From a bacterium (GTDB lineage Bacteria; SZUA-182; DTGQ01; JAFGSM01), in NCBI GenBank assembly GCA_049472315.1, contig JBLIRN010000014.1, positions 5,820 to 69,819 on the forward strand: DNA of 64,000 nt. The letters run 5' to 3'. Of this stretch, positions 2,816-54,927 are shown one piece after another. Position 1 is the stretch's first letter. Each line of letters starts with the position of its first letter. The position numbers and the translations under genes are program-made. The notes beneath the pieces were generated by a model, which was not told where the DNA came from, did not search any database, and was given only the letters and a program-made list of their open reading frames with translations.

Positions 2816-3979
2816 CTAATCAGCTAACACAAATTTGCCGTCCCTGACCGTAAGTACCTCGAAGGATTCCCTGGTGAGGCCGTTATGGTCGAGGGGTGAG
2901 AAGTTGAACAGACCGGCCGTGCCCACGAAGCCCTTCATGTTTTCCAGGTAGTCCCTGATCTTTGCACGGTTGGGTCCCACCGCCTTGAGGGCCTCGATCA
3001 CCATCCACATGCCGTCATAGGCGTGTCCTCCGAAGGTGCTCACCTCGCCGCCGAATTTCTTCTGGTACTCGGTTTTGTAATCCATGAGGACCTTCTTCTG
3101 GTAGTGGTAGTCAGGGAGCTGATCGGCAACCAGGAGCCTGCCGATGGGCGAAAGGACGCCTTCAGCCGCCCCGCCTGCCTGCTCGATGTTCTTGGTGTTG
3201 CCGAAGCCGTGACTCTGGAAAAGGGGTATCGTGATCCCGAGCTGTTTGACATTCTTGGTGACGATCACCTGGGTAGGGCCGATGGACCAGTTGACGATCG
3301 CCTGGGCGTCGGTCCCCTTGATCTTGGTGAGCTGAGCGGTCATATCGGTGTCCTTGTTGCTGTACCGCTCATCCGCCACGATGGTGATGCCCATTCGCTT
3401 TGCCGCCTCCAGGAGCTCGGTCCTGCCGCTGTCCCCGAACCCGTCCGATACCGTGATGATGGCCACCCTGGTGATCCCCTTTTTGAGCATATACTCGAAC
3501 ATGGCCTCCGCACAGAACTCGTCGGACTGGGGGGTCTTGAACACCCATTTACGCTCGGCAACCGGAGAGATGATCCTTTTTGAGGCGGCGCAGGAGATAT
3601 TGGGCACCTCCGCCTCCTGAACCACTGGAATGACGGCAAGGCTCGAGCCGCTCCGGGAGGGGCCGATGATGGCGAGCACCTGGTCCTTTTCGATGAGCTT
3701 CTTTGCGTTCAGGACCGACTTGGTCTCGTCCCCCTCGGTGTCATAGATGATCAATTCGATGGGATGGCCGTTGATCCCCCCTGCTGCGTTTACCTTGTCC
3801 GCGATCATCTGTGCGGTGTTCCGCTCCGGCTCCCCCAGCCATGAGGCAGGTCCGGTTACGGAAAAGATCGCACCGATCTTGTAGGGCTCCTTGGCCGCCT
3901 GACCGATCCTGCACAGACCGAAACAGAGAATGATCATACATACCGCAGCAAGCACCATTTTCCTCTTCACCACGCTCAC
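2816..3979 (-). CDS. Liv-type periplasmic solute-binding protein (paralog 1)
   Basis: 387 aa with a signal peptide and Peripla_BP_6/LivK-like motifs (YKIGAIFSVTGPASWLGEPERN, ITKVAIITVSDGFGDSG). Confidence 0.85.
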   Translation of the reverse strand: MSVVKRKMVLAAVCMIILCFGLCRIGQAAKEPYKIGAIFSVTGPASWLGEPERNTAQMIADKVNAAGGINGHPIELIIYDTEGDETKSVLNAKKLIEKDQVLAIIGPSRSGSSLAVIPVVQEAEVPNISCAASKRIISPVAERKWVFKTPQSDEFCAEAMFEYMLKKGITRVAIITVSDGFGDSGRTELLEAAKRMGITIVADERYSNKDTDMTAQLTKIKGTDAQAIVNWSIGPTQVIVTKNVKQLGITIPLFQSHGFGNTKNIEQAGGAAEGVLSPIGRLLVADQLPDYHYQKKVLMDYKTEYQKKFGGEVSTFGGHAYDGMWMVIEALKAVGPNRAKIRDYLENMKGFVGTAGLFNFSPLDHNGLTRESFEVLTVRDGKFVLAD

Positions 3980-4083: not shown

Positions 4084-5253
4084 TCATTCGGCAAGGGCGA
4101 AACTGCCGTTTCTCACCTGGAGCATCTCGAATGCATCCTTGGTCAGTCCGCAGTGGTCATCGGGTGAAAAACGGTAGATATCGGCAATCCCCATAAAGCC
4201 CTGCAGGTTCTCGATGTAATCCCTGATCTTTGCCCGGTCGGGACCTACCGCCTTGAGGGCATCGACGAGGATATACATGGCGTCGTAGGCATGGCCCCCG
4301 AAGGTGCTCACCTCGGAGCCGAACCGTTCCTCGTACTCTTTTTTATACCCCATGAGGACCTTTTTCTGGTAGTGGTCATCCGGAAGCAGGTCGGCCACCA
4401 GGATACGTCCCACCGGGACCAGCACCCCTGATGCGGCGGGGCCTGCCTGATCGATATTCTTGGTGCTCCCGAATCCCGAGCTTTGGAACAGCGGGATCTT
4501 GAGGCCGAGCTGGTACACGTTCTTGGTAATGATGACCTGGGTGGGGCCGATCGACCAGTTCACGATGGCCTGGGCATCCGTACCCTTGATCTTGGTGAGC
4601 TGAACGGTCATATCGGTGTCCTTGTTGCTGTAACGCTCATCCGCCACGATGGTGATGCCCATGTTTTTCGCAGCCTTCTGGAGCTCGATCCTTCCGCTGT
4701 CGCCGTATCCGTCGGACACGGTGATGATGGCGACCTTGGTGATCCCCTTCTTGAGCATGTAATCGAACATCTTCTCCGCACAGAAGGAATCGGATTGGGC
4801 CACCTTGAACACCCAACGCTTTATCGGCTCGGTGATCTTTGCCGATGCCGCGCACGAGATGTTGGGCACCCCTGCCTCCTCCACCACCGGTATGACGGCG
4901 AGGCTGGAGCCGCTCCGGGAGGGACCGATGATGGCGAGCACCTGGTCCCTTTCGATGAGCTTCTTGGCGTTCAGGACCGACTTGGTCTCGTCTCCCTCGG
5001 TGTCATAGATGATCAATTTGAGGGGATGACCGTTGATGCCGCCTGCCGCATTGACCTTATCGGCGATCATCTGAGCGGTGTTGCGTTCCGGCTCGCCGAG
5101 CCAGGATGCTGGGCCGGTTACGGAAAAGATGGCCCCGATCGTATACGGCTCCTTTTCGGCGCGGCCTGTTCCGGGGAATACCATACAGGCGATGAAAAGA
5201 ATGATAATGACGACGCACTGCCCTTTGTACCGGATCTTTGATACAGGTATCAT
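4084..5253 (-). CDS. Liv-type periplasmic solute-binding protein (paralog 2, tandem duplicate)
   Basis: 389 aa, about 75% identical to the 2816-3979 product with a divergent signal peptide. Confidence 0.85.
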   Translation of the reverse strand: MIPVSKIRYKGQCVVIIILFIACMVFPGTGRAEKEPYTIGAIFSVTGPASWLGEPERNTAQMIADKVNAAGGINGHPLKLIIYDTEGDETKSVLNAKKLIERDQVLAIIGPSRSGSSLAVIPVVEEAGVPNISCAASAKITEPIKRWVFKVAQSDSFCAEKMFDYMLKKGITKVAIITVSDGYGDSGRIELQKAAKNMGITIVADERYSNKDTDMTVQLTKIKGTDAQAIVNWSIGPTQVIITKNVYQLGLKIPLFQSSGFGSTKNIDQAGPAASGVLVPVGRILVADLLPDDHYQKKVLMGYKKEYEERFGSEVSTFGGHAYDAMYILVDALKAVGPDRAKIRDYIENLQGFMGIADIYRFSPDDHCGLTKDAFEMLQVRNGSFALAE

Positions 5254-9574: not shown

Positions 9575-12233
9575 GGGCATGGGTGATTTTATACGGTATT
9601 TTTCACGGGTGGCAGGGCTCTGGCTCGTGGTCGTCCTGTGGTGGGGCCTGATCGTTCTGGCCCCCTTGCAGATCCATAACGGGATCGTCATCCGCGACCT
9701 CCCCGCCATCGCAGGGGGGATCTATATACTCCTGCTCATGGGATTCTGGAAGAAATGGAGGATATCATTCCGTTCCATGAGGCAGGAGTGGCTTCTTCCC
9801 CTTCTGCTCATTGCAGCACTCGATGCGATTGCCATCCTGTATTTCCGCAGCATTACCTTTTCCTTCATCCTTACCTCACTATGTATCCTCTTGACCGGTC
9901 ATGTCTTGAATCTTGCGTCGTTTATCGATGCCGGATCCCTCCTCTTTCTTACCAGCGCGGGATTCGGAATCACCCACCTGATCATGCACCTCGTGCGCGG
10001 GATTCCCACCCTTGGATCCAGGTTTTTTGCCCGTCAGATCGCCTTCCTGCTCACCCTGTTTGGAAAGGACGCCCATGTGGTCATGGGTACCCTTTTTTTT
10101 CAAGGGAAAAAGATAACCTGCGACCTCATGAAGATGGGGTTTTTCCCGTGGCTGGCATTGAGCCTTGCCTTTCTCGCATTCATCGCCACGGCCCGGGGAA
10201 GCAGGAAAAAAAAGGCGTATGCCGCCGGAATCGGCATTGTCTTACATTATCTGTATCTGGTGGGAAGGGCCGCGCTGCTCTTTGTGTTCGTACCCGATCG
10301 CATGTATGCGGGCGCTGGAACGTTCAACCTCTTTTATTGGCGGATACTCGTTTTTTCATGTATCCCCCTGCTCCTTATATGGCTGTTCATCCTCTATGAG
10401 GCGGATCTGTCCGAGCCGGAAAAGGGTTTGTCCGGGCTGTTTTCTGCAAAGCCATCCCGGATGGACCCCCTGCTCTTCGCAGCGACTGTGATAACGGTGC
10501 TTTTCATGACCTTGTCATTTCTGTTCCACGGGTTTGCCAGACACCGGGACATCCACGTCATCATCGACGAGGTACACAGTGACTGGGAATCGAGCCTCAT
10601 CGATTTCAATCAAGACATCTTCGGCACCCTTGCGGAGAACAGCTACCACTCCCTACTGGACTACCTGAGGCACTTTTACCCGGCAACAATCCTGAGCAAT
10701 AAACCGGGCATGGCCCCCAATCTTGAGGGAGTCGAGTTGATCCATACCCCCATCCTCACCGGCGAGGTTCTGGACGGTGCCACGAGGATCCATCCGGAGC
10801 GGCACCCGGTGCTGGTCTTGAAATGCATCACCACGGCGTTTTCCCCCTATGAGATCGACATCATAAGGGATTTCGTCTCCCGCGGCGGAAGCGTACTGCT
10901 CATCGGCGACCACACGGATGTGTTTTTCATGAACAAGAATCTCAATGAGCTTGCAGGACACTTCGGCATACGGTTCGAGCAGAATTCCGTATATTTCATT
11001 GACGGGGGATGGGTCATCACGGATCCGCCGCACTACGAGTCGCATCCGGCAACCCACTTCCTGGGCCGGTTTATCTGGGCCACCGGGGATTCCGTGACCC
11101 TGAAATCGCCTGCGTTTCCCCTGATTACCAGCTCTCCGGTCTGTTTTGCCGATGAGGTCAATTACTTTTACGAAAATTTCTTCGGCAACACCACGATCGA
11201 TGCCGACGAGGTGTTCGGAAGCTACTGCGTCATGGCCGGATCACGGTATGGCAAGGGAAGGATCATTGCCTTTACCGATTCGACCTGCTTCAATAACTAC
11301 CTGATGTTCAGCGTGGGTCGAAGGCCGCTCATCGCGGGAATCTTCGGATGGCTGGGTGATACGGACTCGACGAATCCCTTTCCCCTGCTCACCTACCTCT
11401 CCTTTTGCGTGCTGGGGGTGATTATGCTGAAACGATGGCGAGGATTCGACTCGTTCCTGCGCACCTGCATCCTGGGCGTGATCCTGGGGTGGGGTGCAGG
11501 ATACCTTTTGGCTATGTCCATGAACGCCCTGCTCTACCCTCCCCCCGCACCCATACGTCCCTTGCCGCAGCAAGTGATCATGGATGCAAGCCATGACCCG
11601 CTCCATGCAATGAGTTACGGGAACAGCGAATCATTTCTTGCACCGACCAGTTACGACAGCCTCCTGTTCAATATCGGGAGGATAGACCTGTTCACGAGGA
11701 TACACTATGAAGGATCCCTTGGGAAGAGGGCGCTTGACGGATCGTCCTGCCTCATCATCGCCTCTCCGAGGGAGCAATTCTGCGCACGGGAGAGGGATGC
11801 AATACGATCGTATGTTCAGAACGGCGGATCGTTGCTCCTTATCGAGGGTGCGCATCACGATTCCACCGTCAATCAGATCGCGCATCTCTTCGACATGCAT
11901 GTGCGTCTCGACCCCTATCGCAACACGATCGATGCAATGAACCAGCGCCTGGCGAGGAACGGGCGTGATGCCCTTCGCACCAATCCCGCATGGGTGGATG
12001 GCGGCACCATGCTCTTCGGCTACGAGGGAATGCCTATTGTCATCTTCAAGCGAGAGGGCAAAGGAATGATTCTCGCCTTCGGCGACGACGGACTTTTCAT
12101 GAAGGAGAACTTTCAGGCATTCGGCCGGGAACTGGTTACCATGCAGTGCTTCATGGTCGAGGCGCTCGTGGGCAAGGACGAAGAGCTGCTGCGGTCCATC
12201 CGGTGGAATTATGTCGGCGACGGGGACCCTTGA
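9549..12233 (+). CDS. Polytopic membrane protein with two GldG/ABC_transp_aux (DUF4350)-like domains (MP2, tandem paralog)
   Basis: 894 aa with about 10 N-terminal TM helices. Domains carry motifs IDIIRDFVSRGGSVLLIGDHTD...IIAFTDSTCFNNYLMF and RDAIRSYVQNGGSLLLIEGAHHD...ILAFGDDGLFMKENF. Overlaps MP1 by 26 nt. Confidence 0.7.
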   Translation: MHMKRFSTKGMGDFIRYFSRVAGLWLVVVLWWGLIVLAPLQIHNGIVIRDLPAIAGGIYILLLMGFWKKWRISFRSMRQEWLLPLLLIAALDAIAILYFRSITFSFILTSLCILLTGHVLNLASFIDAGSLLFLTSAGFGITHLIMHLVRGIPTLGSRFFARQIAFLLTLFGKDAHVVMGTLFFQGKKITCDLMKMGFFPWLALSLAFLAFIATARGSRKKKAYAAGIGIVLHYLYLVGRAALLFVFVPDRMYAGAGTFNLFYWRILVFSCIPLLLIWLFILYEADLSEPEKGLSGLFSAKPSRMDPLLFAATVITVLFMTLSFLFHGFARHRDIHVIIDEVHSDWESSLIDFNQDIFGTLAENSYHSLLDYLRHFYPATILSNKPGMAPNLEGVELIHTPILTGEVLDGATRIHPERHPVLVLKCITTAFSPYEIDIIRDFVSRGGSVLLIGDHTDVFFMNKNLNELAGHFGIRFEQNSVYFIDGGWVITDPPHYESHPATHFLGRFIWATGDSVTLKSPAFPLITSSPVCFADEVNYFYENFFGNTTIDADEVFGSYCVMAGSRYGKGRIIAFTDSTCFNNYLMFSVGRRPLIAGIFGWLGDTDSTNPFPLLTYLSFCVLGVIMLKRWRGFDSFLRTCILGVILGWGAGYLLAMSMNALLYPPPAPIRPLPQQVIMDASHDPLHAMSYGNSESFLAPTSYDSLLFNIGRIDLFTRIHYEGSLGKRALDGSSCLIIASPREQFCARERDAIRSYVQNGGSLLLIEGAHHDSTVNQIAHLFDMHVRLDPYRNTIDAMNQRLARNGRDALRTNPAWVDGGTMLFGYEGMPIVIFKREGKGMILAFGDDGLFMKENFQAFGRELVTMQCFMVEALVGKDEELLRSIRWNYVGDGDP

Positions 12234-12277
12234 CCTAGCCTACGCCCTTAACCTCCTAATACCGAGTTTCTCACGAC

Positions 12278-12443
12278 GAAGGGGGATGCGCCTTTTGTTT
12301 CGGCTCCCTTGCACACAGCCTGTATGGCTCGCTTCGGGCACGCCTCAACTCGCCCTTCGGGCTCGAACAAGCGGCGTGCTTTTCCTCAGCTTCGCCGACA
12401 GGCTGTAGTGCTCGTCCGCAGGCACACAGGCGCATCCCCCTTC
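12278..12443. repeat. MITE-like repeat, copy A (166 bp, perfect 15-bp TIR GAAGGGGGATGCGCC / GGCGCATCCCCCTTC)
   Basis: Terminal inverted repeats read directly from the sequence. The interior is about 85-90% identical to the reverse complement of segments at 28754-29029. Sits between convergent gene ends (MP2 stop 12233; S8 peptidase stop 12448). Confidence 0.8.
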
Positions 12444-12447
12444 ATCC

Positions 12448-14283
12448 TCACCGCACCCAGAACCCGTACCCGTTGAGCAATGAGAGTGCATAGGCTAAGG
12501 GAAAAAGCTGATACGGGGAAATGGGAGATGACCACCGCGACTGCGATGCGTAGGGAGAAGCCGTTGAGGCTATGGAGGACTCAACCTGGTATCCCCCTGC
12601 ATTTGCCTGTGCATACCCCCAGCCTGAGAACGCCTGCTGCCCGATAGTGGAAAGGCCCTGCGCAGCAAACATCGGGGTCAATCCATAGGACGGCACAAAC
12701 GAATTAGCCCCTGCTACGGATGGATAGAACAATGACCTCCCGTTTGTGGCGAGGTATCCCTGGACGGTGGAGAACGACTGCTGAGAGACAGAGGGCTGAA
12801 ATGCCTGGATGCCCGCTTGCACGGCGGAGAGAAATCCTGCATTGCTTTGATATATTCGGTCTTCAGGGACATTCACGCCCACGGGAAGGGATGAGCCCTG
12901 ATAGACGGCTGAAGGCACGATTCGGGACGTGACCGGCTGGAACCCGGTCCGGGTGCCGAAGATGCTTGCCGTGGCATATGTGCCGGCAGCCTGCGTCGCT
13001 GCGAGGGGATTGACCAGCCCCCACCCGTACCATTGATCCCATCCCGGGTCGCCAAGGTCGCTTGCGGTGGTGCAGAGGATGTCCCGCACCTCTGACGGGG
13101 TAAGGGGCCGTGCCGAACGGGCAAGCATCAGCGCAGCCACACCGGACACGAATGCACAGGAGCATGAGGTGCCCTCGGCAAAATAGAAGTCGAAATCCTT
13201 GACATCGATCCCGGTATGGGTCTGCTGATAGATGCCGTCAGGATACCCATCGCCGTTCACGTCCTCGTCCAGGTCACCACCCGGTGCACAGATGTCCACA
13301 TCAGGCCCATAGTTGGAATAGGAATCGGCAAAGGAATGATCGAACCGGGTCGCGCTGACAGAGATGGCTGCGTCGTATGATGAGGGATAATGGGGCTCGC
13401 TGGTCGATTCGTTGCCCGCCGAGCATATAACCACCACTCCTTGGGATACCGCGAAATTGATCGCCTCCTCCTCGCTCGATGAGGGGCTGGTGACAAATCC
13501 GTAGCTCATGTTGATGACCCTGGCGCCGTTATTGACTGCAAAATATATGGCATCCACGATATCCGCCACCGTCCCCGAACCCGTATGGTCGAGCACCTTG
13601 ACCGGCATGAGAATGCACTCGGGGGCCACCCCGGCGCCCCCGATGAGATTGTTGGTACTCTGGGCGATGATGCCTGCGATATGCGTACCATGACGATTGT
13701 CGTCGTCAGGATAGGCATCGTCGTTCACGAAGTCGTATCCCGGCATGAAACTCGTCTCCGCCAGATCGGGGGCAAGGGCGAACCCGCCGCCGTTTCGATA
13801 GGCGACCCCGGTATCAAACACGGCAACCACCACGTTGGTTCCCAGGGATTGATCCCATGTCTGCTGGAGCATGGGATTATAGAGATGCCACTGAAGCTTG
13901 TACAGCGGATCATTGGGGATAAAATTCACCCTTCTCACATAGTTCGGCTCTGCCAAGGCTACCAGGGGATTCTGATTCAGATTTGCGGAAACGGCATACA
14001 CGTTGGAATTCGAAGGAACCCTCACCCTTCTCAACCCGCTGTAGGCACTGTATCCGACCTCGTTCAATCCCAGGTTGACATACGTGTTATTGATATCATT
14101 TGTGGATGCCTCGGAATGGTAACGAACCAGGACCTCCTGGGAGAAGTAGCCCTGGGTTTGCCTCCCTCCCCCCATTCCCCAGCCCCAGGAAGGAATCGAA
14201 GAAACATGGAAAAGAATGAAAAGACAACAAATCGTTATACAGCCTATCAACACACAAGCCCTGAACCGGCACCAGTACGCCAT
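12448..14283 (-). CDS. S8 family (subtilisin-like) serine peptidase with a C-terminal low-complexity Ser/Gln/Ala/Tyr-rich tail
   Basis: N-terminal signal peptide. Catalytic Asp (VAVFDTGV), His (HGTHIAGI) and Ser (GTSCSCAFVSGVAAL) motifs. The last roughly 200 aa are low-complexity and end GYGFWVR. Confidence 0.85.
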   Translation of the reverse strand: MAYWCRFRACVLIGCITICCLFILFHVSSIPSWGWGMGGGRQTQGYFSQEVLVRYHSEASTNDINNTYVNLGLNEVGYSAYSGLRRVRVPSNSNVYAVSANLNQNPLVALAEPNYVRRVNFIPNDPLYKLQWHLYNPMLQQTWDQSLGTNVVVAVFDTGVAYRNGGGFALAPDLAETSFMPGYDFVNDDAYPDDDNRHGTHIAGIIAQSTNNLIGGAGVAPECILMPVKVLDHTGSGTVADIVDAIYFAVNNGARVINMSYGFVTSPSSSEEEAINFAVSQGVVVICSAGNESTSEPHYPSSYDAAISVSATRFDHSFADSYSNYGPDVDICAPGGDLDEDVNGDGYPDGIYQQTHTGIDVKDFDFYFAEGTSCSCAFVSGVAALMLARSARPLTPSEVRDILCTTASDLGDPGWDQWYGWGLVNPLAATQAAGTYATASIFGTRTGFQPVTSRIVPSAVYQGSSLPVGVNVPEDRIYQSNAGFLSAVQAGIQAFQPSVSQQSFSTVQGYLATNGRSLFYPSVAGANSFVPSYGLTPMFAAQGLSTIGQQAFSGWGYAQANAGGYQVESSIASTASPYASQSRWSSPISPYQLFPLAYALSLLNGYGFWVR

Positions 14284-16075: not shown

Positions 16076-16254
16076 GCGCTGTAGCCGTATGCCCGGCTCC
16101 TTCCTTTGTGCGCGACTGTGCGTGAGCGCAAGGCCGGGGGCACAGGCATGAGGTGAGGTTGCATTGCAAATCTGGTTGTTAGATATAAGGGCACCATAGA
16201 ACTTCGCTTCGCTCCGCCTGGCACGCGTGGTTTCCCCTTCCCGCAATGGTTAAT
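16076..16254. repeat. Degenerate third copy of the MITE-like repeat family
   Basis: Segments (gcggagcgaagcgaag..., ...cgcttcgctccgcctggcacgcg...ccccttcccgc, gctgtagccg...) align to copies A and B. Lies about 150 bp upstream of the 16405 gene. Confidence 0.5.
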
Positions 16255-28068: not shown

Positions 28069-28677
28069 ATGACGAGAAGGATCGCGCAGGCGATTGCGGC
28101 CTCCCCACCCCCTGCCAAGCTTTTTATGGGGCTTATCCTTTCGCAACACAGCAGCCTCGACGAGATCGCCGCACGCCTTGCCGACCGCTTCGGTCCGATC
28201 GACGCCGAGAGCCCGGTGCACTCCTTCGATCATACCGGCTACTATTGCGAGGAAATGGGCCCGTACCTGAAGAGGAAATTTGTGTGTTTTCACACCCTGG
28301 TCCATGCAGACCATCTTGCAGACATAAAATGCCGCACCAACGAGATGGAGGCATTGATCGGCGAGATGAGGGGAAAAAGGCTCATGCGCAGGGTAAATAT
28401 GGATCCCGGCATCCTCACCCTTTCGAATGTCGTTCTGGCCACAACCAAGAACCACGCACACCGCATCTATCTCTCGCAGGGGATTTTTGCGGAGGTCACC
28501 CTGATCTATTCGAGGAGGGCGGGCTGGCAGCCGCTTGACTGGACATACCCGGACTACCGGACGCCCGTGGCCCTTGATTTCTTCAACACCGCTCGGGAAC
28601 GATATCACCGTCAGATAAGGGATCTCACCGGCACGGACGGATCGGGCAATCTTGACAAACACCAGGACCGGGATTAA
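28069..28677 (+). CDS. Hypothetical protein (possibly DUF4416 family)
   Basis: 202 aa. The N-terminus (PPPAKLFMGLILSQHSSLDEIAARLADRFGPID) matches my recollection of DUF4416 proteins from Geobacter-like genomes. Assigned from memory. Confidence 0.45.
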   Translation: MTRRIAQAIAASPPPAKLFMGLILSQHSSLDEIAARLADRFGPIDAESPVHSFDHTGYYCEEMGPYLKRKFVCFHTLVHADHLADIKCRTNEMEALIGEMRGKRLMRRVNMDPGILTLSNVVLATTKNHAHRIYLSQGIFAEVTLIYSRRAGWQPLDWTYPDYRTPVALDFFNTARERYHRQIRDLTGTDGSGNLDKHQDRD

Positions 28678-28753
28678 ACTGCTTTTTGAGAGTAATTCCA
28701 TGATGTTTTGCTGACTGCCCACCCTGCGCTGCAAGTAATATGGGATTATGCGG

Positions 28754-29029
28754 GAAAGGGGGATGCGCCCGTGTGCCTGCAGACGAGCACTACAGCCTGT
28801 GGGCAAGCTGAGGATTAGCACGCCAACCGAACTTTGTCAGAGCGGAGCGAGGCGAAGCTACTATAAAAAGGCTTCTTTTGAAAAGCTGAAAGGCTTGCTT
28901 CATTTCGAGCCCGAAGGGCGAGTTGAGGCGTGCCCGAAGCGAGCCTTATAGGCAAAGGTGACTGGAAGGAGCAATATAGCAGCTCCGATTCGCTCCGCCT
29001 CACGAAGTTTTTTTGGCGCATCCCCCTTC
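28754..29029. repeat. MITE-like repeat, copy B (276 bp; inverted orientation relative to copy A; TIR CGGGAAAGGGGGATGCGCC / GGCGCATCCCCCTTCCCGG)
   Basis: Shares termini and an internal core (gagcccgaagggcgagttgaggcgtgcccgaagcgagcc) with the reverse complement of copy A, plus two internal insertions. Ends 44 bp upstream of the ATG at 29073. Confidence 0.8.
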
Positions 29030-29072
29030 CCGGAGAATATTGAGCAGTCACATTTTTATTAAGAAGCCGGCT

Positions 29073-29798
29073 ATGCTCATCATTTCTCATAAAGCCCCGC
29101 TGTTCTTCTCGATCATGGGGATGCTGATCACCGTAATCCCACTGAGCGTATCCTGGGCCATGGGCACGGGGCGGTCCGCGCAGGACACCGCCCGTATCCC
29201 CCTTCCCTCCCCCGCCCTTACGGGCACGGTCTCGGTGGAAGAGGCGATCAAGGCGCGACGCACGCGCAGGAATTTTTCACCAGACCCCCTTTCCATGGAG
29301 GAATGGGGCCAGATCCTGTGGGCGGCCCAGGGCATCACCTCCGAGGGGGGTATGGGGATGAGGGCTGCCCCGTCAGCCGGGGCACTCTATCCCCTCGACA
29401 TCTATCTCATTGCCGGTGAGGGCGGCACCGGATCCTTGAGTGCCGGTGTGTACCACTACGAACCGCTGCAGCATGCCCTGATGCGCCTCTCATCCGAGGA
29501 TATGAGGAAGAAGGTTGCCGAGGCATCCCTCTATCAGGGCTGGATGGCCGAGGCACCCGGCATGATCCTCATAGCCGTCGAATATGCGAGAATAACCGGG
29601 AAATATAAAGAGCGGGGGATTCGCTATGCCCATTTCGAGGCGGGTCATGTGGCCCAGAACTGCTTCCTCCAGGCGGAATCCCTCGGCCTTCACGTGGGCA
29701 TTGTGGGTGCATTCGAGGATGAGACCATGAAGAAAATCCTCCCCCTCCCCAAGGGACATGAGCCCCTGCTTATTCTGCCAGTGGGGAGACCTCGATGA
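29073..29798 (+). CDS. SagB-type dehydrogenase / nitroreductase-superfamily protein with N-terminal signal or anchor
   Basis: Nitroreductase-fold motifs (RRTRRNFSPDPLSMEEWGQILWAAQG; AGALYPLDIYL; HFEAGHVAQNCFLQAESLGLHVGIVGAF). The start was moved to ATG 29073 because the upstream 60 nt belong to repeat B. Confidence 0.7.
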   Translation: MLIISHKAPLFFSIMGMLITVIPLSVSWAMGTGRSAQDTARIPLPSPALTGTVSVEEAIKARRTRRNFSPDPLSMEEWGQILWAAQGITSEGGMGMRAAPSAGALYPLDIYLIAGEGGTGSLSAGVYHYEPLQHALMRLSSEDMRKKVAEASLYQGWMAEAPGMILIAVEYARITGKYKERGIRYAHFEAGHVAQNCFLQAESLGLHVGIVGAFEDETMKKILPLPKGHEPLLILPVGRPR

Positions 29799-39762: not shown

Positions 39763-40530
39763 GTGAACACATCCCGTGCCATATTCGTGAGGCCGGCCGC
39801 ACTCAAGCCGGTTCCCTTCCGTTTCTGTCCCGGCTGTCACCACGGCATCATTCACCGCCTAGTGGCTGAGGCAATCGACCATTTCAATATCCTGGACAGG
39901 ACCATCGGGATCGCCCCGGTGGGATGCGCCGTTTTCGCCTACGATTATTTTGCCTGCGACGTGCTGGAGGTAGCCCACGGACGTCCGCCTGCTGCATGCA
40001 CCGGCATCAAGCGAGCCCGTCCCGACCTTGTTGTGTTCAGCTACCAGGGGGACGGGGACCTTGCCTCCATCGGTACCGCAGAAATCGTGCATGCGGCGAA
40101 CCGGGGTGAAAACGTTACCTTCATCTTTGTCAATAACGCCGTTTACGGCATGACCGGAGGACAGATGGCCCCCACCACCCTCCCCGGTCAGAAGACCAAG
40201 ACAACCCCCTTCGGACGGAAGGCCTCCACGGATGGATATCCGCTCAGGGTCTGCGAGATGCTCGCCACCCTGGAGGGGACCACCTACATCGAGCGGGTGG
40301 CAGTGAACACCCCCGCCAGGATTCGAAAGGCTGCACAAGCCATCAGAAAGGCCTTCCAGGTCCAGCTCGAACACAAGGGATTCAGTCTCGTGGAGGTCCT
40401 CGCCACATGCCCCACCAACTGGGGGATGTCTCCTGTAGAGGCAAACCGCTGGATCACTGAGTGCATGCACAAGGTCTTCCCCTTGGGGGTGTTCAAGGAC
40501 GTTTCCCGTGAAGGGGGATGTGATTCATGA
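39763..40530 (+). CDS. korB: 2-oxoacid:ferredoxin oxidoreductase beta subunit (TPP-binding)
   Basis: TPP-binding GDG motif region (FSYQGDGDLASIGTAE...FIFVNNAVYGMTGGQ). Confidence 0.9.
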   Translation: MNTSRAIFVRPAALKPVPFRFCPGCHHGIIHRLVAEAIDHFNILDRTIGIAPVGCAVFAYDYFACDVLEVAHGRPPAACTGIKRARPDLVVFSYQGDGDLASIGTAEIVHAANRGENVTFIFVNNAVYGMTGGQMAPTTLPGQKTKTTPFGRKASTDGYPLRVCEMLATLEGTTYIERVAVNTPARIRKAAQAIRKAFQVQLEHKGFSLVEVLATCPTNWGMSPVEANRWITECMHKVFPLGVFKDVSREGGCDS

Positions 40531-41075
40531 ACCAAGAGGTGATCATGGCCGGATTCGGCGGACAGGGCATCATGGTTATGGGGAAGCTCCTCGCCATGGC
40601 CGGCATGCTCGACAACAGGGAGGTGACCTGGTTTCCCTCCTATGGTGCTGAAATGCGGGGCGGCACCGCAAACTGCACCGTGATTATCGCCGATCAGGCC
40701 ATCGGCTCGCCTATCGTGGCCCGTCCGTGGGCATGCATTGCCATGAACCAACCATCCATGGAGCGTTTTGCCCCCCGGGTAAAACCCGGCGGATTTCTCC
40801 TGGCGAATTCCTCCCTGATCACCTGCAATTCCCTTCGGGAGGACATCGAGGTGCTGGCCATCCCCATTACGGACCAGGCGGACCGGCTCGGCTCCATCAA
40901 GGTGGCGAACATCATCGCCCTCTCCGCCTTTTGCACCAGGACCGGAATCGTCTCCCCGGACAGCCTGGAGCGGGTGATGGAGGAATCCTTTGCCGGGAAA
41001 GGGGATTCCGCCCTCATGGAGATCAATCGCGCGGCAATCCGGGCAGGCCGTGAAATGGCCCTGTGTATCCCATGA
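40527..41075 (+). CDS. korC: 2-oxoacid:ferredoxin oxidoreductase gamma subunit
   Basis: 182 aa with the POR/KOR gamma motif IMAGFGGQGIMVMGKLLA. Overlaps the korB stop. Confidence 0.85.
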   Translation: MNQEVIMAGFGGQGIMVMGKLLAMAGMLDNREVTWFPSYGAEMRGGTANCTVIIADQAIGSPIVARPWACIAMNQPSMERFAPRVKPGGFLLANSSLITCNSLREDIEVLAIPITDQADRLGSIKVANIIALSAFCTRTGIVSPDSLERVMEESFAGKGDSALMEINRAAIRAGREMALCIP

Positions 41076-41545
41076 TCAGAAAGGCTCGTATCCGGGATGC
41101 CCATGTCATACGGAATCTTATCAACGAGTATGCCCATCGGGGACTTTTGCTCCCCCTTTCGCTCTCAGAGATCTACGACCGCATAAGGGACTTTTTCGTA
41201 TACCAGGAAGAGACGGGAGATGGGGCTCTTGCCATCCTTGGCATCTGCGCATTGCATATCATATGGGAAGATCTGGCGGAGATCCGTTCGCTTGCTGTTA
41301 CCGAAAATCACTGGAAGCAGGGGATCGGCTCGCGGCTCGTACAGGCCTGCCTCAAGGAGGCTACTGACCTGGAGGTGAAAAAGATCTTCTGTCTCACCTA
41401 CAAAAGGGAATTCTTTTCCTCGCAGGGATTCACGGAGATCGACAAATCCCAGCTTCCTCACAAGATATGGTCCGATTGCCTCAAGTGCTCCAAATTCCCC
41501 GAATGCGAGGAAATCGCCATGATGTACGAGATACCCCGCCGATAG
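41063..41545 (+). CDS. GNAT family N-acetyltransferase (short ArgA/N-acetylglutamate-synthase-like)
   Basis: 160 aa. The N-terminus (IRKARIRDAHVIRNLINEYAHRGLLLPLSLSEIYDRIRDFFVY) resembles single-domain ArgA-like NAGS. CoA-binding motif QGIGSRLV. Overlaps the korC end. Confidence 0.65.
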   Translation: MYPMIRKARIRDAHVIRNLINEYAHRGLLLPLSLSEIYDRIRDFFVYQEETGDGALAILGICALHIIWEDLAEIRSLAVTENHWKQGIGSRLVQACLKEATDLEVKKIFCLTYKREFFSSQGFTEIDKSQLPHKIWSDCLKCSKFPECEEIAMMYEIPRR

Positions 41546-41711
41546 GGCCGCGGCCGATCATCAAATTTCACATCGTTTAATGTAAGTACCTTATATCCAA
41601 TACCATATGGAGGTGGTAAAAAATAATATATTATCCCGCAGCAGACAGCGGGCATCCACAATCATAAAATTTAAGTATTTGATATTTATAATCGAATATA
41701 TAATGTTTTTT

Positions 41712-41741
41712 TTGACACGCATGTGCCGTGCCTGCTATACT
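41712..41741 (+). promoter_or_regulatory. Near-consensus sigma70 promoter (TTGACA-N18-TATACT) about 150 bp upstream of the first minor-pilin operon
   Basis: TTGACA at 41712-41717 and TATACT at 41736-41741, within a roughly 320-bp AT-rich intergenic region. Confidence 0.45.
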
Positions 41742-41894
41742 TATATTGAGTAGTGTTCACGGCATCCGGCGCGCATGACGTTGTCTGTTGTGCGCCCCCA
41801 TCAATCGATTCCGCACCTTTTTGACCGATGCGCAGGTGAACCCATCTTCGTTTATACCCCTTGAGCATTGCTGGTCTGTTCGGAAAGGAAGAAT

Positions 41895-42473
41895 ATGCGC
41901 CCTGCGTTTATTGCACGTGGGACGGTCGAGTCACGCGTGCGGCCCACGGGATTCACCCTTGTCGAGATGGGCATCGTACTGGCCACCATCAGCATCATGT
42001 CCGCCATTGCATTCCCGAATATCAGTTCCATGATGGCCAATTACCGCTTGAAGGCCGCGGCCAGGGATGTGATGTCACACCTTCAGCGGGCAAAGATGGT
42101 GGCGGTGAAAAACAATTCCCTCTGTACCCTCACCTTCAACCAGCACGTGGAAGGTGTCCCTTACGATTACGTGGTGTATGAGGATGATGACCGGGATTAC
42201 GAGTATGACGCGGGCGAAAGGATCCTCGCGTCGGTGAAGTTTTCGGATTATAAGAGCGGTGTCGGACTCGATCACTCAAAGGGAGGGGGTGACGGGGTGA
42301 CCTTTGCCGAAAACGATGCAGGCCGGCCTTCCATAGCATTCAATTCGCGGGGGCTCCCGGTGAGCCCTGGGGGTGTTGCGGGCATGGGCATGGGCTCCGT
42401 GTACCTCGTCAATAACCGCGAGACAAAGAAATGGATCAGTGTGCACAAGGCGGGAAGGATACGAATTCAATAA
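41895..42473 (+). CDS. fimT: Type IV pilus minor pilin, FimT/GspH family (set 1)
   Basis: RBS AAGGAAG. Prepilin motif G|FTLVEMGIVLATISIM and GspH-like region ANYRLKAAARDVMSHLQRAKMVAVKNN. Confidence 0.8.
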   Translation: MRPAFIARGTVESRVRPTGFTLVEMGIVLATISIMSAIAFPNISSMMANYRLKAAARDVMSHLQRAKMVAVKNNSLCTLTFNQHVEGVPYDYVVYEDDDRDYEYDAGERILASVKFSDYKSGVGLDHSKGGGDGVTFAENDAGRPSIAFNSRGLPVSPGGVAGMGMGSVYLVNNRETKKWISVHKAGRIRIQ

Positions 42474-43315
42474 TGTGTCAGGTAAAACGGTCAGCGAAGG
42501 GCATTGCCCCCGGGAAGGACGCCAACCGGCTTGCAGGCGGATTCACCCTGGTGGAGCTCCTCCTTGCCCTGTTCATAAGCGCGGTCATGGCGGCAGCCAT
42601 CTTCAACTTCTTCATCGCCCAGAACAAGTCGTACTCCGTGCAGGACCAGGTTGCGGAGATGCAACAGAATATGCGCGCAGCCATCAACCTCATGGTAAAG
42701 GAGATCAGGATGGCCGGCTACGATCCAACAGGCGAGGCAGGGGCGGGAATAGTCGCAGCCGAATCCCGCAGCATCACCTTTACCCTGGACCTGGATGGAG
42801 ACAAGGGGCTCACGGATTATAACGAGTACATAACCTATGGACTCTATACCCCGGCTGACCGCATACAAAAGCTGGGCAGAAAGGCTACCCAGAATGAGAA
42901 CTTCGCGCCGGTTGCCGAACACGTGGAGTCCCTTGGATTCGCCTATGCCTTTGACAGCAACGGGGATGGCATCCTGGACAGGGATGGCCCCCATGTGATC
43001 TGGGCGATCGACAAGGACGGCACCTGGTACGACCTGGATACCGACGACGACGGTGACATCGACGATGACGACTCCATCCCCGCCGGTGAGGATACCGGGA
43101 TTGCTGTGGACCTGGATGACATCAGGGCGGTGCGTATATGGCTCCTCGTCGAATCGAGCAAACCTGATGAGGCGTATGCCAATCGCAAGACCTATGTGGT
43201 GGGAAGCAGGGTGATTCGCCCGGCAGGTGACGCCGATACCGGAAACGACTTCCGGCGCATGCGGATCGTAGAGACCGTGGTCCGCTTGAGAAACATGGCG
43301 ATCAGGGAGGGATGA
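42473..43315 (+). CDS. pilW: Type IV pilus minor pilin PilW-like (set 1)
   Basis: Prepilin motif GG|FTLVELLLALFISAVMAAAIFNFF. Size and the SYSVQDQVAEMQQNMR region are typical of PilW. Start codon overlaps the fimT stop. Confidence 0.75.
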   Translation: MCQVKRSAKGIAPGKDANRLAGGFTLVELLLALFISAVMAAAIFNFFIAQNKSYSVQDQVAEMQQNMRAAINLMVKEIRMAGYDPTGEAGAGIVAAESRSITFTLDLDGDKGLTDYNEYITYGLYTPADRIQKLGRKATQNENFAPVAEHVESLGFAYAFDSNGDGILDRDGPHVIWAIDKDGTWYDLDTDDDGDIDDDDSIPAGEDTGIAVDLDDIRAVRIWLLVESSKPDEAYANRKTYVVGSRVIRPAGDADTGNDFRRMRIVETVVRLRNMAIREG

Positions 43316-43770
43316 CCATGTCGTCGGATATACGTGAATCGAGACTCCAGCAGGGATTCAGCCTGCTCGAGGTGCTCATTTCCATTGGCATCTTTGCCAT
43401 CGGAATCCTCGGGGCGAGCGTCCTGCTCATCAATACCATCAAGGGCAATGCCGTGTCCATACGCCTGAGCACTGCAACACAGCTTGCCTCCAAACAGATG
43501 GAGGAGATCATGCTCATAGACTATGCCTCCCTCATGGACCATGACGGCGACGGCCTCGCAGGGCTTGATGATACAGACGCCTCCACCGCTGACGGCATAC
43601 GCCTGAACCTAAAGGGAGGGGGGGTGGGCGAGCGCTACAACCTTTACTGGAATGTGGCGGAGAACGCGCCGGTAGCCGGGACCAAGACTGTTCGGGTCAT
43701 TGTGGCCTGGCATGGCGGCACTCGGGACAAACGCGTTGCATTCGACATGGTGAGAACCAGGGGGGAATGA
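43312..43770 (+). CDS. pilV: Type IV pilus minor pilin PilV-like (set 1)
   Basis: QQG|FSLLEVLISIGIFAIGILG is the PilV-type N-terminus. About 150 aa. Confidence 0.8.
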   Translation: MTMSSDIRESRLQQGFSLLEVLISIGIFAIGILGASVLLINTIKGNAVSIRLSTATQLASKQMEEIMLIDYASLMDHDGDGLAGLDDTDASTADGIRLNLKGGGVGERYNLYWNVAENAPVAGTKTVRVIVAWHGGTRDKRVAFDMVRTRGE

Positions 43771-43771
43771 T

Positions 43772-44266
43772 ATGAAGGCACTATTCGATATACTCCACCG
43801 CGAGGAGGGCACTGCATTTCTCATCGCGATGCTGGTCCTTATGCTCCTTACCCTCATGGGCACCTTTGCCATCATGACCACCGATATCGAAATCCAGATT
43901 GCAGGGAACGAAAAGGAGTACATGAGGGACTTCTATGTAACCGACAGCGGCTGGAAGGAGGCCGCCCCCTGGCTCAACAACCGGGCCACCCCACCCCGGC
44001 CGGTGAACACCTCCCTGGAGGATAACGTGGTCAAGAATTTCGGCGGAGGAGGAGACGGGGTCACCAACGAGGACTTCCCTCCCGGCACCCAGGACGGGAC
44101 CCTTGCCGGGATCCCCTACTGGAACAGGATCGAATACCTCTCCAACAGCGTGATGCCCGGAAGCGGCAAGGAATACCTGAGGTTCAACTACCGGGTGACG
44201 AGCAATGCCGGGGGCAATCAGGAAATCGACGTAACCCTCTATAAGATTTACAAGGTGGGGTATTAA
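43772..44266 (+). CDS. pilX: PilX-like minor pilin (PilX_N domain) (set 1)
   Basis: EEGTAFLIAMLVLMLLTLMGTFAIMTTDIEIQIAGNEKEYMRDFYVTDSG matches the PilX N-terminal domain pattern. Confidence 0.75.
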   Translation: MKALFDILHREEGTAFLIAMLVLMLLTLMGTFAIMTTDIEIQIAGNEKEYMRDFYVTDSGWKEAAPWLNNRATPPRPVNTSLEDNVVKNFGGGGDGVTNEDFPPGTQDGTLAGIPYWNRIEYLSNSVMPGSGKEYLRFNYRVTSNAGGNQEIDVTLYKIYKVGY

Positions 44267-44281
44267 TCCCGTGATGAGAGA

Positions 44282-48850: not shown

Positions 48851-49077
48851 ACATATTCCTCCAGCAGTCTTTATTTTTCGCACTTCATTCAAAAATCTCC
48901 TGATTTCCAAAATATTTCTCCTTTCCCTCCCTCCCCCTCCTTCCGCGGCAATTCTCATTTTAACCTTGTATTGCCCCGATCCTTTGATGACATTCAAAAT
49001 AAGAATTGCTCATATCCCTCCGATCAATTTTTTTATTTTGCCGATAAAAGAATAAATAACTCCATGGAGGCATATTT

Positions 49078-49578: not shown

Positions 49579-49588
49579 GTGAACGCAC

Positions 49589-50029: not shown

Positions 50030-50032
50030 GCC

Positions 50033-50992: not shown

Positions 50993-51001
50993 GGTGCCAC
51001 C

Positions 51002-51577: not shown

Positions 51578-51657
51578 GGGACGGCTCACGTCATACAGCG
51601 TGACATGTACGGGAAGAAAAACAATTTAACTGGAACATCCATAATAGGAGGTGCACC

Positions 51658-54915: not shown

Positions 54916-54927
54916 GAAAGGTCAATC

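What the first reader, a model, noticed from the sequence alone, without database searches (positions are those of the whole stretch)
12278..12443. MITE-like repeat family with perfect 15-19 bp terminal inverted repeats (copies at 12278-12443 and 28754-29029)
Copy A is 166 bp and bounded by perfect inverted repeats GAAGGGGGATGCGCC...GGCGCATCCCCCTTC. Copy B is 276 bp, 28754-29029. It has the same termini (extended to CGGGAA(A)GGGGGATGCGCC) and the same internal core in reverse orientation, plus two internal insertions. Shared segments are about 85-90% identical. Both six-frame ORFs that overlap them (12211-12408 and 28815-29090) encode the same peptide LASGTPQLALRAR. That is a by-product of repeated DNA, not conservation of a gene. 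A short non-coding element with TIRs, multiple diverged copies and intergenic insertion is the signature of a miniature inverted-repeat transposable element. Copy A lies between convergent gene ends and copy B lies 44 bp upstream of a start codon. I cannot assign it to a known IS family from the TIR sequence.
Basis: seen in the sequence. Interest (0 to 1): 0.5.

Follow-up and report, generated by a model that had tools for sequence, protein, structure and literature searches.

The report
Small hairpin-forming mobile repeat (MITE family)
The two repeats are real copies of a small non-coding mobile DNA element that inserted at both spots after this bacterium split from its closest sequenced relative, which makes it an ordinary kind of element but a previously undescribed family.

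Summary
Copy A (12278-12443) has perfect 15-nt inverted termini, and copy B (28754-29032) shares them plus two segments that are 94-96% identical, in inverted orientation.

Syntenic contigs from a relative (about 80% protein identity, JGI 3300005832) have both sites empty. The DUF4416-to-nitroreductase spacer is 31 bp there, and the window carries 349 extra bp. The spacer between the convergent peptidase and 893-aa genes is 14 bp there, and the window carries about 200 extra bp.

Further copies lie at unrelated intergenic sites in four other assemblies (L003, L005, L006, L014). Copy B and L003 are flanked by A/T-rich direct repeats of 6-8 bp.

Corrections to the finding:
- The mobile unit of B is 342 bp (28710-29051) and extends beyond the "perfect TIRs".
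- The "insertions" in B come from a second palindromic family, which also occurs alone at about 16.1-16.25 kb.
- The family is modular.

All copies fold as one long rod-shaped hairpin, and a few compensatory changes maintain it. I found no conserved ORF, no Rfam match and no partner transposase, and the rest of the genome could not be searched. Verdict: a new member of a known kind, of modest interest.

The parts
12278..12443 (-). Copy A, the unit bounded by the inverted termini (166 bp). Module order on the minus strand is TIR - X1 - X2 - core - Y - TIR.
   Evidence: It folds as a single rod hairpin, -104.8 kcal/mol with z -8.9 on the minus strand and -92.5 with z -7.7 on the plus strand. The right boundary at 12443|12444 is fixed by the empty site in L011.
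12244..12277 (.). 34 nt to the left of copy A that are also missing from the empty site. Whether this is element or flank is uncertain. There are two candidate target duplications: AACCTC (12250-12255) with ATCCTC (12444-12449), or TTTCTCAC (12267-12274) with ATCCTCAC (12444-12451).
   Evidence: Alignment with L011, coordinates. Each candidate repeat has roughly a 0.1 probability of arising by chance (my estimate), so neither is decisive.
12278..12292 (+). Left inverted terminus of copy A, GAAGGGGGATGCGCC.
12429..12443 (-). Right inverted terminus of copy A, a perfect complement of the left one.
28710..29051 (+). Copy B, the whole inserted unit (342 bp). Its outer ends are GCTGACTGCC... and ...GAGCAGTCAC. 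Module order is outer - TIR - X1 - X2 - I1 - core - Y' - TIR - outer.
   Evidence: Empty site in L007/L008: L007 reads CCATG|ATTTTTATCG without interruption. Fold energy is -139.8 kcal/mol, z -7.8.
28703..28709 (+). Left copy of the duplicated target, ATGTTTT. The target is ATTTTT with one extra base.
29052..29057 (+). Right copy of the duplicated target, ATTTTT.
28755..28769 (+). Inner inverted repeat of copy B, left arm. It extends to CGGGAAAGGGGGATGCGCC starting at 28751.
29015..29029 (-). Inner inverted repeat of copy B, right arm. It extends to 29032.
28830..28865 (+). Left arm of the second inverted repeat inside B (module I1). This is sequence of a second palindromic family (F2).
   Evidence: The same module is present in L003 and L005, and occurs alone in L006 at 1024-1176.
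28975..29009 (-). Right arm of the second inverted repeat inside B (module Y'). It replaces module Y of copy A.
28904..28953 (+). Conserved core shared with copy A (12318-12367, opposite strand).
   Evidence: 96% over 50 nt. A 32-nt stretch is identical in A, B, L003 and L005.
16098..16245 (-). Degenerate solo copy of the second family (F2), with approximate boundaries. A different degenerate remnant sits at the orthologous site in L011 (7170-7260).
   Evidence: The best match is L006 F2, local alignment score 48 over 45 nt.
28652..28680 (+). Sigma-70-like promoter TTGACA-17-TAAACT upstream of copy B. It is not part of the element, but it places B in the 5' leader of the nitroreductase-nadK-recN operon.
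   Evidence: The same motif is conserved in L007, L014 and L015.

Best explanation
A and B are copies of a non-autonomous, non-coding transposable element (a MITE). The family is modular. An inverted-repeat stem, (C)GGGAA(A)GGGGGATGCGCC, encloses modules X1, X2, a conserved core, and Y. The whole unit is self-complementary and folds into one long rod-shaped hairpin.

The element does not encode its own transposase. I infer that it is moved in trans by the transposase of an unidentified insertion sequence that recognises its ends. Insertion is accompanied by a short (about 6-8 bp) duplication of a mostly A/T-rich target. Variants arise by internal deletion and by nesting or recombination with a second, related palindromic family (F2), which also starts with CGGGAAGG.

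Shown:
- The repeats are real and non-coding.
- Both window copies are insertions relative to orthologous empty sites.
- Other copies lie at unrelated intergenic sites in related uncultivated bacteria.
- Flanking direct repeats exist at copy B and at L003.
- The hairpin is retained in a copy that is 22% diverged.

Inferred:
- Mobilisation in trans by a DDE-type transposase.
- Both copies are co-transcribed with their neighbours. B lies in the 5' leader of nitroreductase-nadK-recN, and A lies in the 3' ends of two convergent genes. Their hairpins may therefore affect termination or mRNA stability, as reported for Correia and ERIC elements (PMC10969869).
For: **Reality of the repeat.**

**Empty site for B.** In L007/L008 (nitroreductase 80% identical, same gene order YjbQ-DUF4416-nitroreductase-NadK-RecN), the sequence CCATG|ATTTTTATCG is uninterrupted. 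The window has 349 extra bp, flanked by ATGTTTT and ATTTTT.

**Empty site for A.** In L011 (peptidase 82% identical, same convergent neighbour), the two stop codons are 14 bp apart against 214 bp in the window. Homology resumes exactly at the end of the right terminus.

**More distant relatives.** They also lack both insertions (L012, L014, L015, L018, L020). The insertions are therefore derived in the window's lineage.

**Other copies at unrelated intergenic sites.**
- L003 2753-3046, between GH57 and hsp20, with perfect 8-bp direct repeats TCAAAAAT at 2745-2752 and 3047-3054.
- L005, between rluD-like and rfbA.
- L006.
- L014 5260-5428.
Pairwise identity is 87-96%, and about 78% for L014 (by eye).

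**Non-coding.** No frame is conserved, and a six-frame peptide query found nothing in 5.8 billion proteins.

**Hairpin.** Fold z-scores are -7.7 to -8.9 on both strands. In four sequences, 95.5% of cells are paired, and 4 pairs changed on both sides, including GCACGCC/GGCGTGC to GCACACC/GGTGTGC and to GCAAACC/GGTTTGC.

**No fixed orientation.** Orientation relative to neighbouring genes varies. B is co-oriented, L003 is anti-oriented, A lies between convergent genes and L005 between divergent ones.

**Independent assemblies.** Logan contigs from four runs carry the same A and B junctions and end inside the shared repeat segments.

**Fit to the definition.** These features match those given for prokaryotic MITEs in PMC10969869.
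Against: - No autonomous element with matching ends was found.
- Target duplications are convincing only for B and L003. For A they are imperfect and ambiguous, and for L005, L006 and L014 I could not define them.
- The true termini are unresolved. B and L003 carry 21-45 nt outside the conserved inverted repeat. A ends exactly at that repeat on one side. Similarities between flanks of different copies were not significant in a shuffle test (best z 2.7).
- Copy number looks low. I found two full copies in 64 kb, two exact-core hits in one whole MAG, and about one copy per 50-60 kb over some 185 kb of related DNA.
- The element has 55-63% G+C, whereas MITEs are typically A/T-rich.
- Compensatory changes in internal stems are not required of a transposase substrate, and they hint at selection on the hairpin itself.
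Confidence: 0.75

Rival explanations
1. The element is mobilised as a single-stranded DNA hairpin by a tyrosine (HUH/Y1) transposase, in the manner of REPINs with RAYT or IS200/IS605-derived palindromic elements. On this reading the conserved feature is the hairpin, not the duplex ends.
For: - The whole unit is a rod hairpin that is retained in a copy 22% diverged.
- There are compensatory changes in the terminal stem (GCGCC/GGCGC to GCGTC/GACGC in L005, and to GTGCC/GGCAC in L014). There are also compensatory changes in an internal stem.
- Target duplications are unclear in most copies.
Against: - B has a duplicated ATTTTT that is anchored by an empty site.
- L003 has a perfect 8-bp flanking repeat. 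Y1 transposases do not produce duplications.
- No conserved GTAG/CTAC-type cleavage motif sits at a fixed position relative to the ends.
- No tetranucleotide or pentanucleotide target is shared by the insertion sites (ATTTTT, TCAAAAAT, ATCCTC).
- No Y1 transposase gene was seen near any copy.
- REPINs usually occur in hundreds of copies.
Confidence: 0.08
2. It is primarily a functional structured RNA (an sRNA gene or a cis-acting mRNA element such as a terminator, stabiliser or RNase III site). It has been duplicated or transferred, and its sequence is kept by selection on RNA structure.
For: - Predicted folds are very stable.
- 95.5% of stem cells are paired, with 4 covarying pairs.
- G-U pairs outnumber A-C mismatches 7 to 2 on the X1-to-Y strand.
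- B lies downstream of a conserved promoter in a 5' leader.
- A lies where a bidirectional terminator would be expected.
- Identity between genomes is high, 87-96%.
Against: - No Rfam family matches, even at E up to 10.
- Orientation relative to transcription is not fixed.
- Whole modules (X2, I1, Y) are gained or lost between copies, which a single functional fold would not tolerate.
- Both window sites function without the element in the sister organism.
- No terminator-like T-run and no internal promoter were detected.
- The covariation evidence rests on 4 sequences, and the 7:2 strand bias is not significant.
- A self-complementary DNA repeat gives the same fold on both strands regardless of function.
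Confidence: 0.08
3. It is a chance similarity, an assembly artefact, or a fragment of a duplicated coding region.
For: None beyond the fact that the window comes from a metagenome-assembled genome.
Against: - The termini are far above chance.
- The same junctions occur in independent Logan assemblies of four or more sequencing runs.
- Copies exist in other projects' MAGs and in a JGI metagenome.
- There is no conserved frame and no protein homologue.
Confidence: 0.01

Closest known systems
Prokaryotic MITEs in general, type II (similar to an IS at most in the terminal repeats), as defined in PMC10969869
   Same: - Shorter than 500 bp and without coding capacity.
- Terminal inverted repeats.
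- Flanking direct repeats in some copies, which decay in others.
- Intergenic location.
- Size variants arising by internal deletion.
- Transcripts predicted to form stable stem-loops.
- Presence or absence differs between related genomes.
   Different: - G+C-rich (55-63%) instead of A/T-rich.
- No partner IS is known.
- Apparently low copy number.
- The best-conserved inverted repeat is not at the physical end of the inserted unit in B and L003.
ERIC / IRU elements of Enterobacteriaceae and Vibrionaceae (from my own knowledge and PMC10969869)
   Same: - An imperfect palindrome of 100-plus bp that folds as one long hairpin.
- Intergenic and co-transcribed with neighbouring genes.
- Size classes created by insertion or deletion of discrete internal blocks.
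- Conserved across related genera.
   Different: - No sequence similarity. blastn against 5,426 E. coli genomes finds nothing.
- Different host lineage.
- ERIC insertion duplicates TA (from memory), whereas here the duplications are 6-8 bp.
Chunjie MITE of Geobacter uraniireducens (PMC10969869, citing Chen et al. 2008)
   Same: - 178-235 bp, with terminal repeats and direct repeats.
- Many partial copies.
- One copy is inserted inside an operon without destroying it. Copy B likewise sits between a promoter and the first gene of an operon.
   Different: Chunjie has 37 full and 57 partial copies in one genome, whereas copy number here is unknown and probably lower.
Correia (CREE/NEMIS) elements of Neisseria
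   Same: A small element bounded by inverted repeats, transcribed within mRNAs. Its terminal repeats pair into a long duplex that RNase III cleaves (PMC10969869). This is a plausible fate for the 15-19-bp perfect stem here.
   Different: Correia carries its own promoters and an IHF site and duplicates TA (from memory). No promoter-like site was found inside A or B.
REPINs (REP doublets mobilised by RAYT transposases)
   Same: A long hairpin made of two inverted arms, with the hairpin maintained by compensatory evolution.
   Different: REPINs give no target duplication, have a conserved GTAG-type motif, are associated with a RAYT gene and occur in hundreds of copies. Here two copies have duplications and no RAYT was seen.
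IS5 family ends (E. coli IS5, GGAAGGTGCGAAYAAG, read from NC_000913)
   Same: The element's repeat GGAAGGGGGATGCGCC shares GGAAGG and TGCG with the IS5 end.
   Different: The match needs a 4-nt gap. IS5 duplicates 4 bp (from memory), whereas here the duplications are 6-8 bp. There is no similarity beyond the first 16 nt. This is a lead only.

Membership tests
MITE (non-autonomous DNA transposon) | Small size (under about 500 bp) with no transposase or other conserved ORF | tested here: met
   Units are 166-342 bp. Every frame is interrupted, or the open frame differs between copies. A six-frame peptide search gave no hit.
MITE (non-autonomous DNA transposon) | Terminal inverted repeats | tested here: met
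   The repeat is a perfect 15 nt in A and 18-19 nt with one indel in B. It is present but decayed in L003, L005, L006 and L014. Caveat: in B and L003 the inserted unit extends beyond this repeat.
MITE (non-autonomous DNA transposon) | Target-site duplication flanking the element | tested here: inconclusive
   - B: ATGTTTT/ATTTTT, anchored by the empty site.
- L003: TCAAAAAT twice, perfect.
- A: AACCTC/ATCCTC or TTTCTCAC/ATCCTCAC, imperfect.
- L005, L006, L014: none could be defined.
MITE (non-autonomous DNA transposon) | Several copies at non-homologous sites, with presence or absence differing between related genomes | tested here: met
   There are two copies in the window and four more in other assemblies at unrelated loci. 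Both window sites are empty in the sister organism. Total copies per genome are unknown.
MITE (non-autonomous DNA transposon) | An autonomous IS with the same ends in the same or a related genome, supplying transposase in trans | not testable with these tools
No match was found in plasmids, phages or E. coli. The ISAzo13 transposase in L020 has unrelated ends.
MITE (non-autonomous DNA transposon) | Demonstrated transposition | not testable with these tools
   This needs an experiment or population-level read data.
ERIC / other E. coli repeat families (REP, BIME, IRU) | Sequence similarity to the family consensus | tested here: not met
   blastn in 'distant' mode with copy A against 28 Gb of E. 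coli genomes gave no match.
REPIN / RAYT system | Insertion without target duplication | tested here: not met
   Duplications are present at B and L003.
REPIN / RAYT system | Association with a RAYT (Y1 transposase) gene | not testable with these tools
   No such gene lies next to any copy, but whole genomes could not be searched.
IS200/IS605-derived palindromic elements | No terminal inverted repeats, with subterminal hairpins instead, and insertion 3' of a fixed 4-5-nt target | tested here: not met
   Terminal inverted repeats are present. The three defined targets have no common tetranucleotide or pentanucleotide.
Any curated RNA family (Rfam 15) | Covariance-model match at or near the gathering score | tested here: not met
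   There were no hits at gathering score over the whole window. At E up to 10 there was only noise, all at 16 bits or below.

The most novel reading that the evidence does not exclude
The rod-shaped hairpin, and not the duplex ends, is what selection maintains. Compensatory changes occur in the terminal stem and also in an internal stem, across genomes whose proteins are only about 60-80% identical. The element itself stays 78-96% identical.

This could mean one of two things. The family may be a new kind of hairpin-recognised mobile element, carrying target duplications and so unlike REPINs. Alternatively, it may be a MITE that the host has recruited as a structured RNA module in mRNA leaders and trailers. 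If so, it might work, for example, as an RNase III entry site controlling nitroreductase-nadK-recN.
Probability: 0.1. Interest if true: 0.55.

Novelty: new member of a known kind. Interest (0 to 1): 0.28.

Why it matters
This is a previously undescribed MITE family. A second, related family is nested with it. Both are found in an uncultivated bacterial lineage known only from MAGs labelled 'bacterium'.

Practical points:
- It explains why short-read assemblies of this organism break at these positions.
- It marks two spurious ORFs that should not be annotated as genes.
- It shows that the annotated start of the nitroreductase gene was displaced by an insertion.
- It provides presence/absence markers for strain and lineage tracking.

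Biological points:
- Copy B places a 342-nt hairpin of about -140 kcal/mol between a conserved promoter and the nitroreductase-nadK-recN operon.
- Copy A places a hairpin of about -100 kcal/mol between two convergent genes.
- Both are testable cases of a mobile element altering expression.

None of this would surprise a specialist in bacterial repeats.

Tried and rejected
1. **Six-frame peptide search.** I concatenated the six-frame translations of B and L003 and searched the 5.8-billion-protein collection, hoping to harvest spurious ORFs from other copies.

2. **Copy A extending into the peptidase gene.** By eye, TTAGCCTATGC resembles L003's outer end, so I suspected that A extends about 58 nt into the 3' end of the peptidase gene. 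L011 encodes the same C-terminus (…PLAYALSLLNGYGFWLR) without any element, so I rejected this.

3. **Longer shared termini read from the flanks.** I saw apparent similarities such as TTTCTCACGAC in A against TTTCTGCACGAC in L005. A pairwise local alignment of all ten flanks with shuffling gave z of 2.7 or less, so I treat these as unproven. The one exception I consider suggestive is ACTGCTCAAT..TCTC, which lies just outside the inner repeat in both B and L014.

4. **Collection scans.**
   - Rfam at gathering score and at E up to 10: nothing.
   - Phages, plasmids and E. coli genomes: nothing.
   - Viral contigs: nothing.
   - First metagenome scan with the core 24-mer: nothing.
   - Literature search for the terminal string: nothing.

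5. **ISAzo13-family transposase in a relative (L020).** Its ends are unrelated to the element.

6. **IS5.** Only GGAAGG…TGCG is shared, which is too weak to assign a family.

7. **Strand bias of G-U pairs.** The count is 7 to 2, which is not significant.

8. **L004 (Opitutae).** This is a chance 21-mer match inside a coding region.

Full report
**1. The observation**

The sequence is as described. GAAGGGGGATGCGCC occurs at 12278-12292 and, as a perfect complement, at 12429-12443. It occurs again at 28755-28769 (one mismatch) and 29015-29029. The window has five hits at up to 2 mismatches against 0.42 expected, and none of 100 shuffles reached that number.

The two copies share a 50-nt segment at 96% identity and a 49-nt segment at 94%, in inverted orientation. 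The shared peptide LASGTPQLALRAR is present in ORFs 12211-12408 and 28815-29090. A sensitive profile scan finds no further full copy in the 64 kb.

Both strands of both copies fold far better than shuffled sequence, with z from -7.7 to -8.9. Copy A is essentially one 166-nt rod hairpin.

**2. It is a family, and it is modular**

An exact-match scan of one genome per species with a 21-mer from the core found two true copies in a single MAG, 'bacterium MF1_202303_bin_233'. These are L003 and L005. It also found one chance hit inside an Opitutae gene. The window's own genome was not among the hits, although both window copies contain that exact 21-mer. A JGI metagenome contig holds another copy (L006). 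A more distant relative holds a copy that is about 78% identical (L014 5260-5428).

The alignment shows discrete modules:

| Copy | Module order |
|---|---|
| A and L006 | TIR-X1-X2-core-Y-TIR |
| L003 | A-type plus a 79-nt block I1 |
| L005 | has I1 but lacks X2 |
| B | has I1 and carries Y' in place of Y |

In B, I1 and Y' pair with each other (28830-28865 with 28975-29009).

The I1/Y' sequence belongs to a second palindromic family (F2). F2 occurs on its own in L006 (1024-1176, with its own inverted ends GGGARGGCTTTTTG). It also occurs in degenerate form in the window at about 16098-16245. So B is a composite of two elements, not copy A with two random insertions.

Pairwise identities among family-1 copies are 87-96%. 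The two copies within the window (92%) are no closer to each other than to copies in other genomes.

**3. Both window copies are insertions**

The closest relative in the protein collection comes from JGI sample 3300005832. Its nitroreductase is 80% identical and its S8 peptidase 82% identical, and its contigs have the same gene order.

At the B site, the relative reads …GAGTAATTCCATG|ATTTTTATCGAAAAG…. The window reads …GAGTAATTCCATG-ATGTTTT-[342 bp]-ATTTTT-ATTAAGAAG…. The insertion is therefore 28710-29051. It is flanked by a duplicated ATTTTT, with one extra base in the left copy. It extends 45 nt to the left and 22 nt to the right of the 'perfect TIRs', and its outermost bases form a short inverted repeat (G[C]TGACTGC).

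The insertion landed just after the ancestral ATG of the nitroreductase gene. In the window that gene now starts at an internal Met (29073).

At the A site, the relative has 14 bp between the two convergent stop codons, against 214 bp in the window. Homology resumes exactly after the right terminus (12443|12444). On the left, about 34 further nucleotides (12244-12277) are also absent from the relative.

More distant relatives (L012, L014, L015, L018, L020) have no family sequence at either site. The filled state is therefore the derived one.

Independent Logan assemblies from four sequencing runs carry the identical filled junctions. Their contigs stop inside the segments that A and B share, which is what a repeat does to a de Bruijn assembly.

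**4. Target duplications and ends**

- L003 is flanked by perfect 8-bp direct repeats, TCAAAAAT (2745-2752 and 3047-3054).
- B is flanked by ATTTTT.
- For A there are two imperfect candidates, AACCTC/ATCCTC and TTTCTCAC/ATCCTCAC. Each has roughly a one-in-ten chance of arising by accident, and neither accounts for all of the extra sequence.
- For L005, L006 and L014 I could not define duplications.

Apparent similarities between the outer flanks of different copies did not pass a shuffle test. One case is suggestive: ACTGCTCAAT(AT)TCTC lies just outside the inner repeat in both B and L014.

I had suspected that copy A reaches into the peptidase gene. The empty site disproved this.

The honest position is that insertion with a short, often A/T-rich duplication is shown for two copies. 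The exact transposition ends of the family are not settled.

**5. Structure conservation**

A, L006, L014 and L003 (with I1 removed) all fold into the same rod. Counted on the consensus structure, 95.5% of cells are paired. Four pairs have changes on both sides, and only 5 of 500 shuffles reach the observed score. Versions with the pairing partner slid by 1-3 columns pair at 31-49%.

Examples of compensated changes:
- The internal stem GCACGCC/GGCGTGC becomes GCACACC/GGTGTGC in L006 and GCAAACC/GGTTTGC in L014.
- The terminal stem GCGCC/GGCGC becomes GCGTC/GACGC in L005.

Four sequences is thin evidence, and a structure derived from these same sequences favours itself. G-U pairs outnumber A-C mismatches 7 to 2 on the X1-to-Y strand, which is not significant. 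I take this as real but weak evidence that the palindrome itself is maintained.

**6. What it is not**

- No Rfam family matches.
- Nothing similar exists in phage, plasmid or E. coli collections or in viral contigs.
- No frame is conserved between copies, and no protein in the large collection resembles any frame.
- Flanking genes are ordinary: DUF4350/GIFT-domain proteins, an S8 peptidase, DUF4416, a SagB-type nitroreductase, NAD kinase and RecN.
- No transposase lies nearby.
- Orientation relative to neighbouring genes is not fixed. This argues against a strand-specific cis-regulatory RNA as the primary identity.

**7. Mechanism**

The best-supported reading is a non-autonomous DNA transposon (a MITE). 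The review PMC10969869 lists the features of prokaryotic MITEs:
- shorter than 500 bp;
- terminal inverted repeats;
- direct repeats that fade with age;
- intergenic location;
- size variants;
- stable stem-loop transcripts;
- mobilisation in trans by an insertion sequence.

All structural and evolutionary criteria that I could test are met, or partly met for the duplications. The trans-acting transposase is inferred, not found.

The element's GGAAGG…TGCG start resembles the IS5 end GGAAGGTGCGAA, and F2 begins with the same CGGGAAGG. These are leads only.

Consequences are also inferred. B sits downstream of a sigma-70-like promoter (28652-28680). That promoter is conserved in three relatives. 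B should therefore be transcribed as a highly structured 5' leader of nitroreductase-nadK-recN. A should be present in the 3' ends of both convergent transcripts. By analogy with Correia and ERIC (PMC10969869), the perfect 15-19-bp stem could be an RNase III site, or the hairpin could block readthrough.

**8. Age and spread**

At about 16.1 kb the window and the sister organism both carry degenerate remnants at the same site, within flanks that are about 85% identical. The two families therefore predate the split of these organisms, whereas A and B inserted after it.

Copies are sparse in the DNA I could sample. I found three intact family-1 copies plus remnants in roughly 185 kb of this lineage.

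**9. Verdict**

This is a new member of a known kind, and interest is modest.

The least conventional reading still open is that the hairpin itself is the selected feature. It could be a substrate for a new kind of mobilisation or a recruited RNA module. I put this at about 10%.

Noticed in passing
window 16098-16245 (approximate); L011 7170-7260; L006 1024-1176: There is a second palindromic repeat family (F2), with the motif CAGGCGGAGCGAAGCGRAGCTACTAT and ends GGGARGGCTTTTTG. A degenerate solo copy lies in the window between the TPR gene and the next gene. The sister organism has a different degenerate remnant at the same site. F2 supplies the 'insertions' inside copy B.
   Followed up: partly
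window 28652-28680: A sigma-70-like promoter, TTGACA-17-TAAACT, lies inside the 3' end of the DUF4416 gene. It is conserved in L007, L014 and L015. It implies that nitroreductase-nadK-recN has its own promoter and that copy B lies in its leader.
   Followed up: partly
window 28700-28709 and 29049-29075: Copy B split the ancestral 5' end of the nitroreductase gene. The relative begins MIFIEKQAMIILSHK, whereas the window gene can only start at the internal Met (ATG at 29073). The orphaned ATG remains at 28700.
   Followed up: yes
window 12211-12408, 12271-12435, 28748-28951, 28815-29090: These four short ORFs (54-91 aa) lie largely or wholly within the repeats and are not genes. Gene callers may annotate them.
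   Followed up: yes
window 2816-3979 and 4084-5253: Two adjacent paralogous genes on the minus strand are 75-87% identical over 300-nt stretches (repeat families D1 and D2). By synteny with L011 they are probably tandem periplasmic-binding-protein genes of a branched-chain amino-acid transporter.
   Followed up: no
window 40375-55970: At least six ORFs start with the prepilin-type N-terminal motif GFTLVE (repeat family D3). This indicates a cluster of pseudopilin or type IV pilin-like genes.
   Followed up: no
L020 16488-17696: A relative (GCA_016934595.1) carries an ISAzo13-family DDE transposase gene about 6 kb from the orthologue of the peptidase locus. Its ends show no similarity to the element.
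   Followed up: partly
L011 10948-10961: The 14-bp spacer between the convergent genes at the empty site is itself a small palindrome (TCCAGCCTGGA). Copy A therefore inserted at or next to a pre-existing hairpin.
   Followed up: no
L015 9766-10000: In another relative the DUF4416-to-nitroreductase spacer is 235 bp and the nitroreductase is N-terminally shorter (216 aa). No family sequence is detectable there. This site may be a recurrent place of rearrangement.
   Followed up: no
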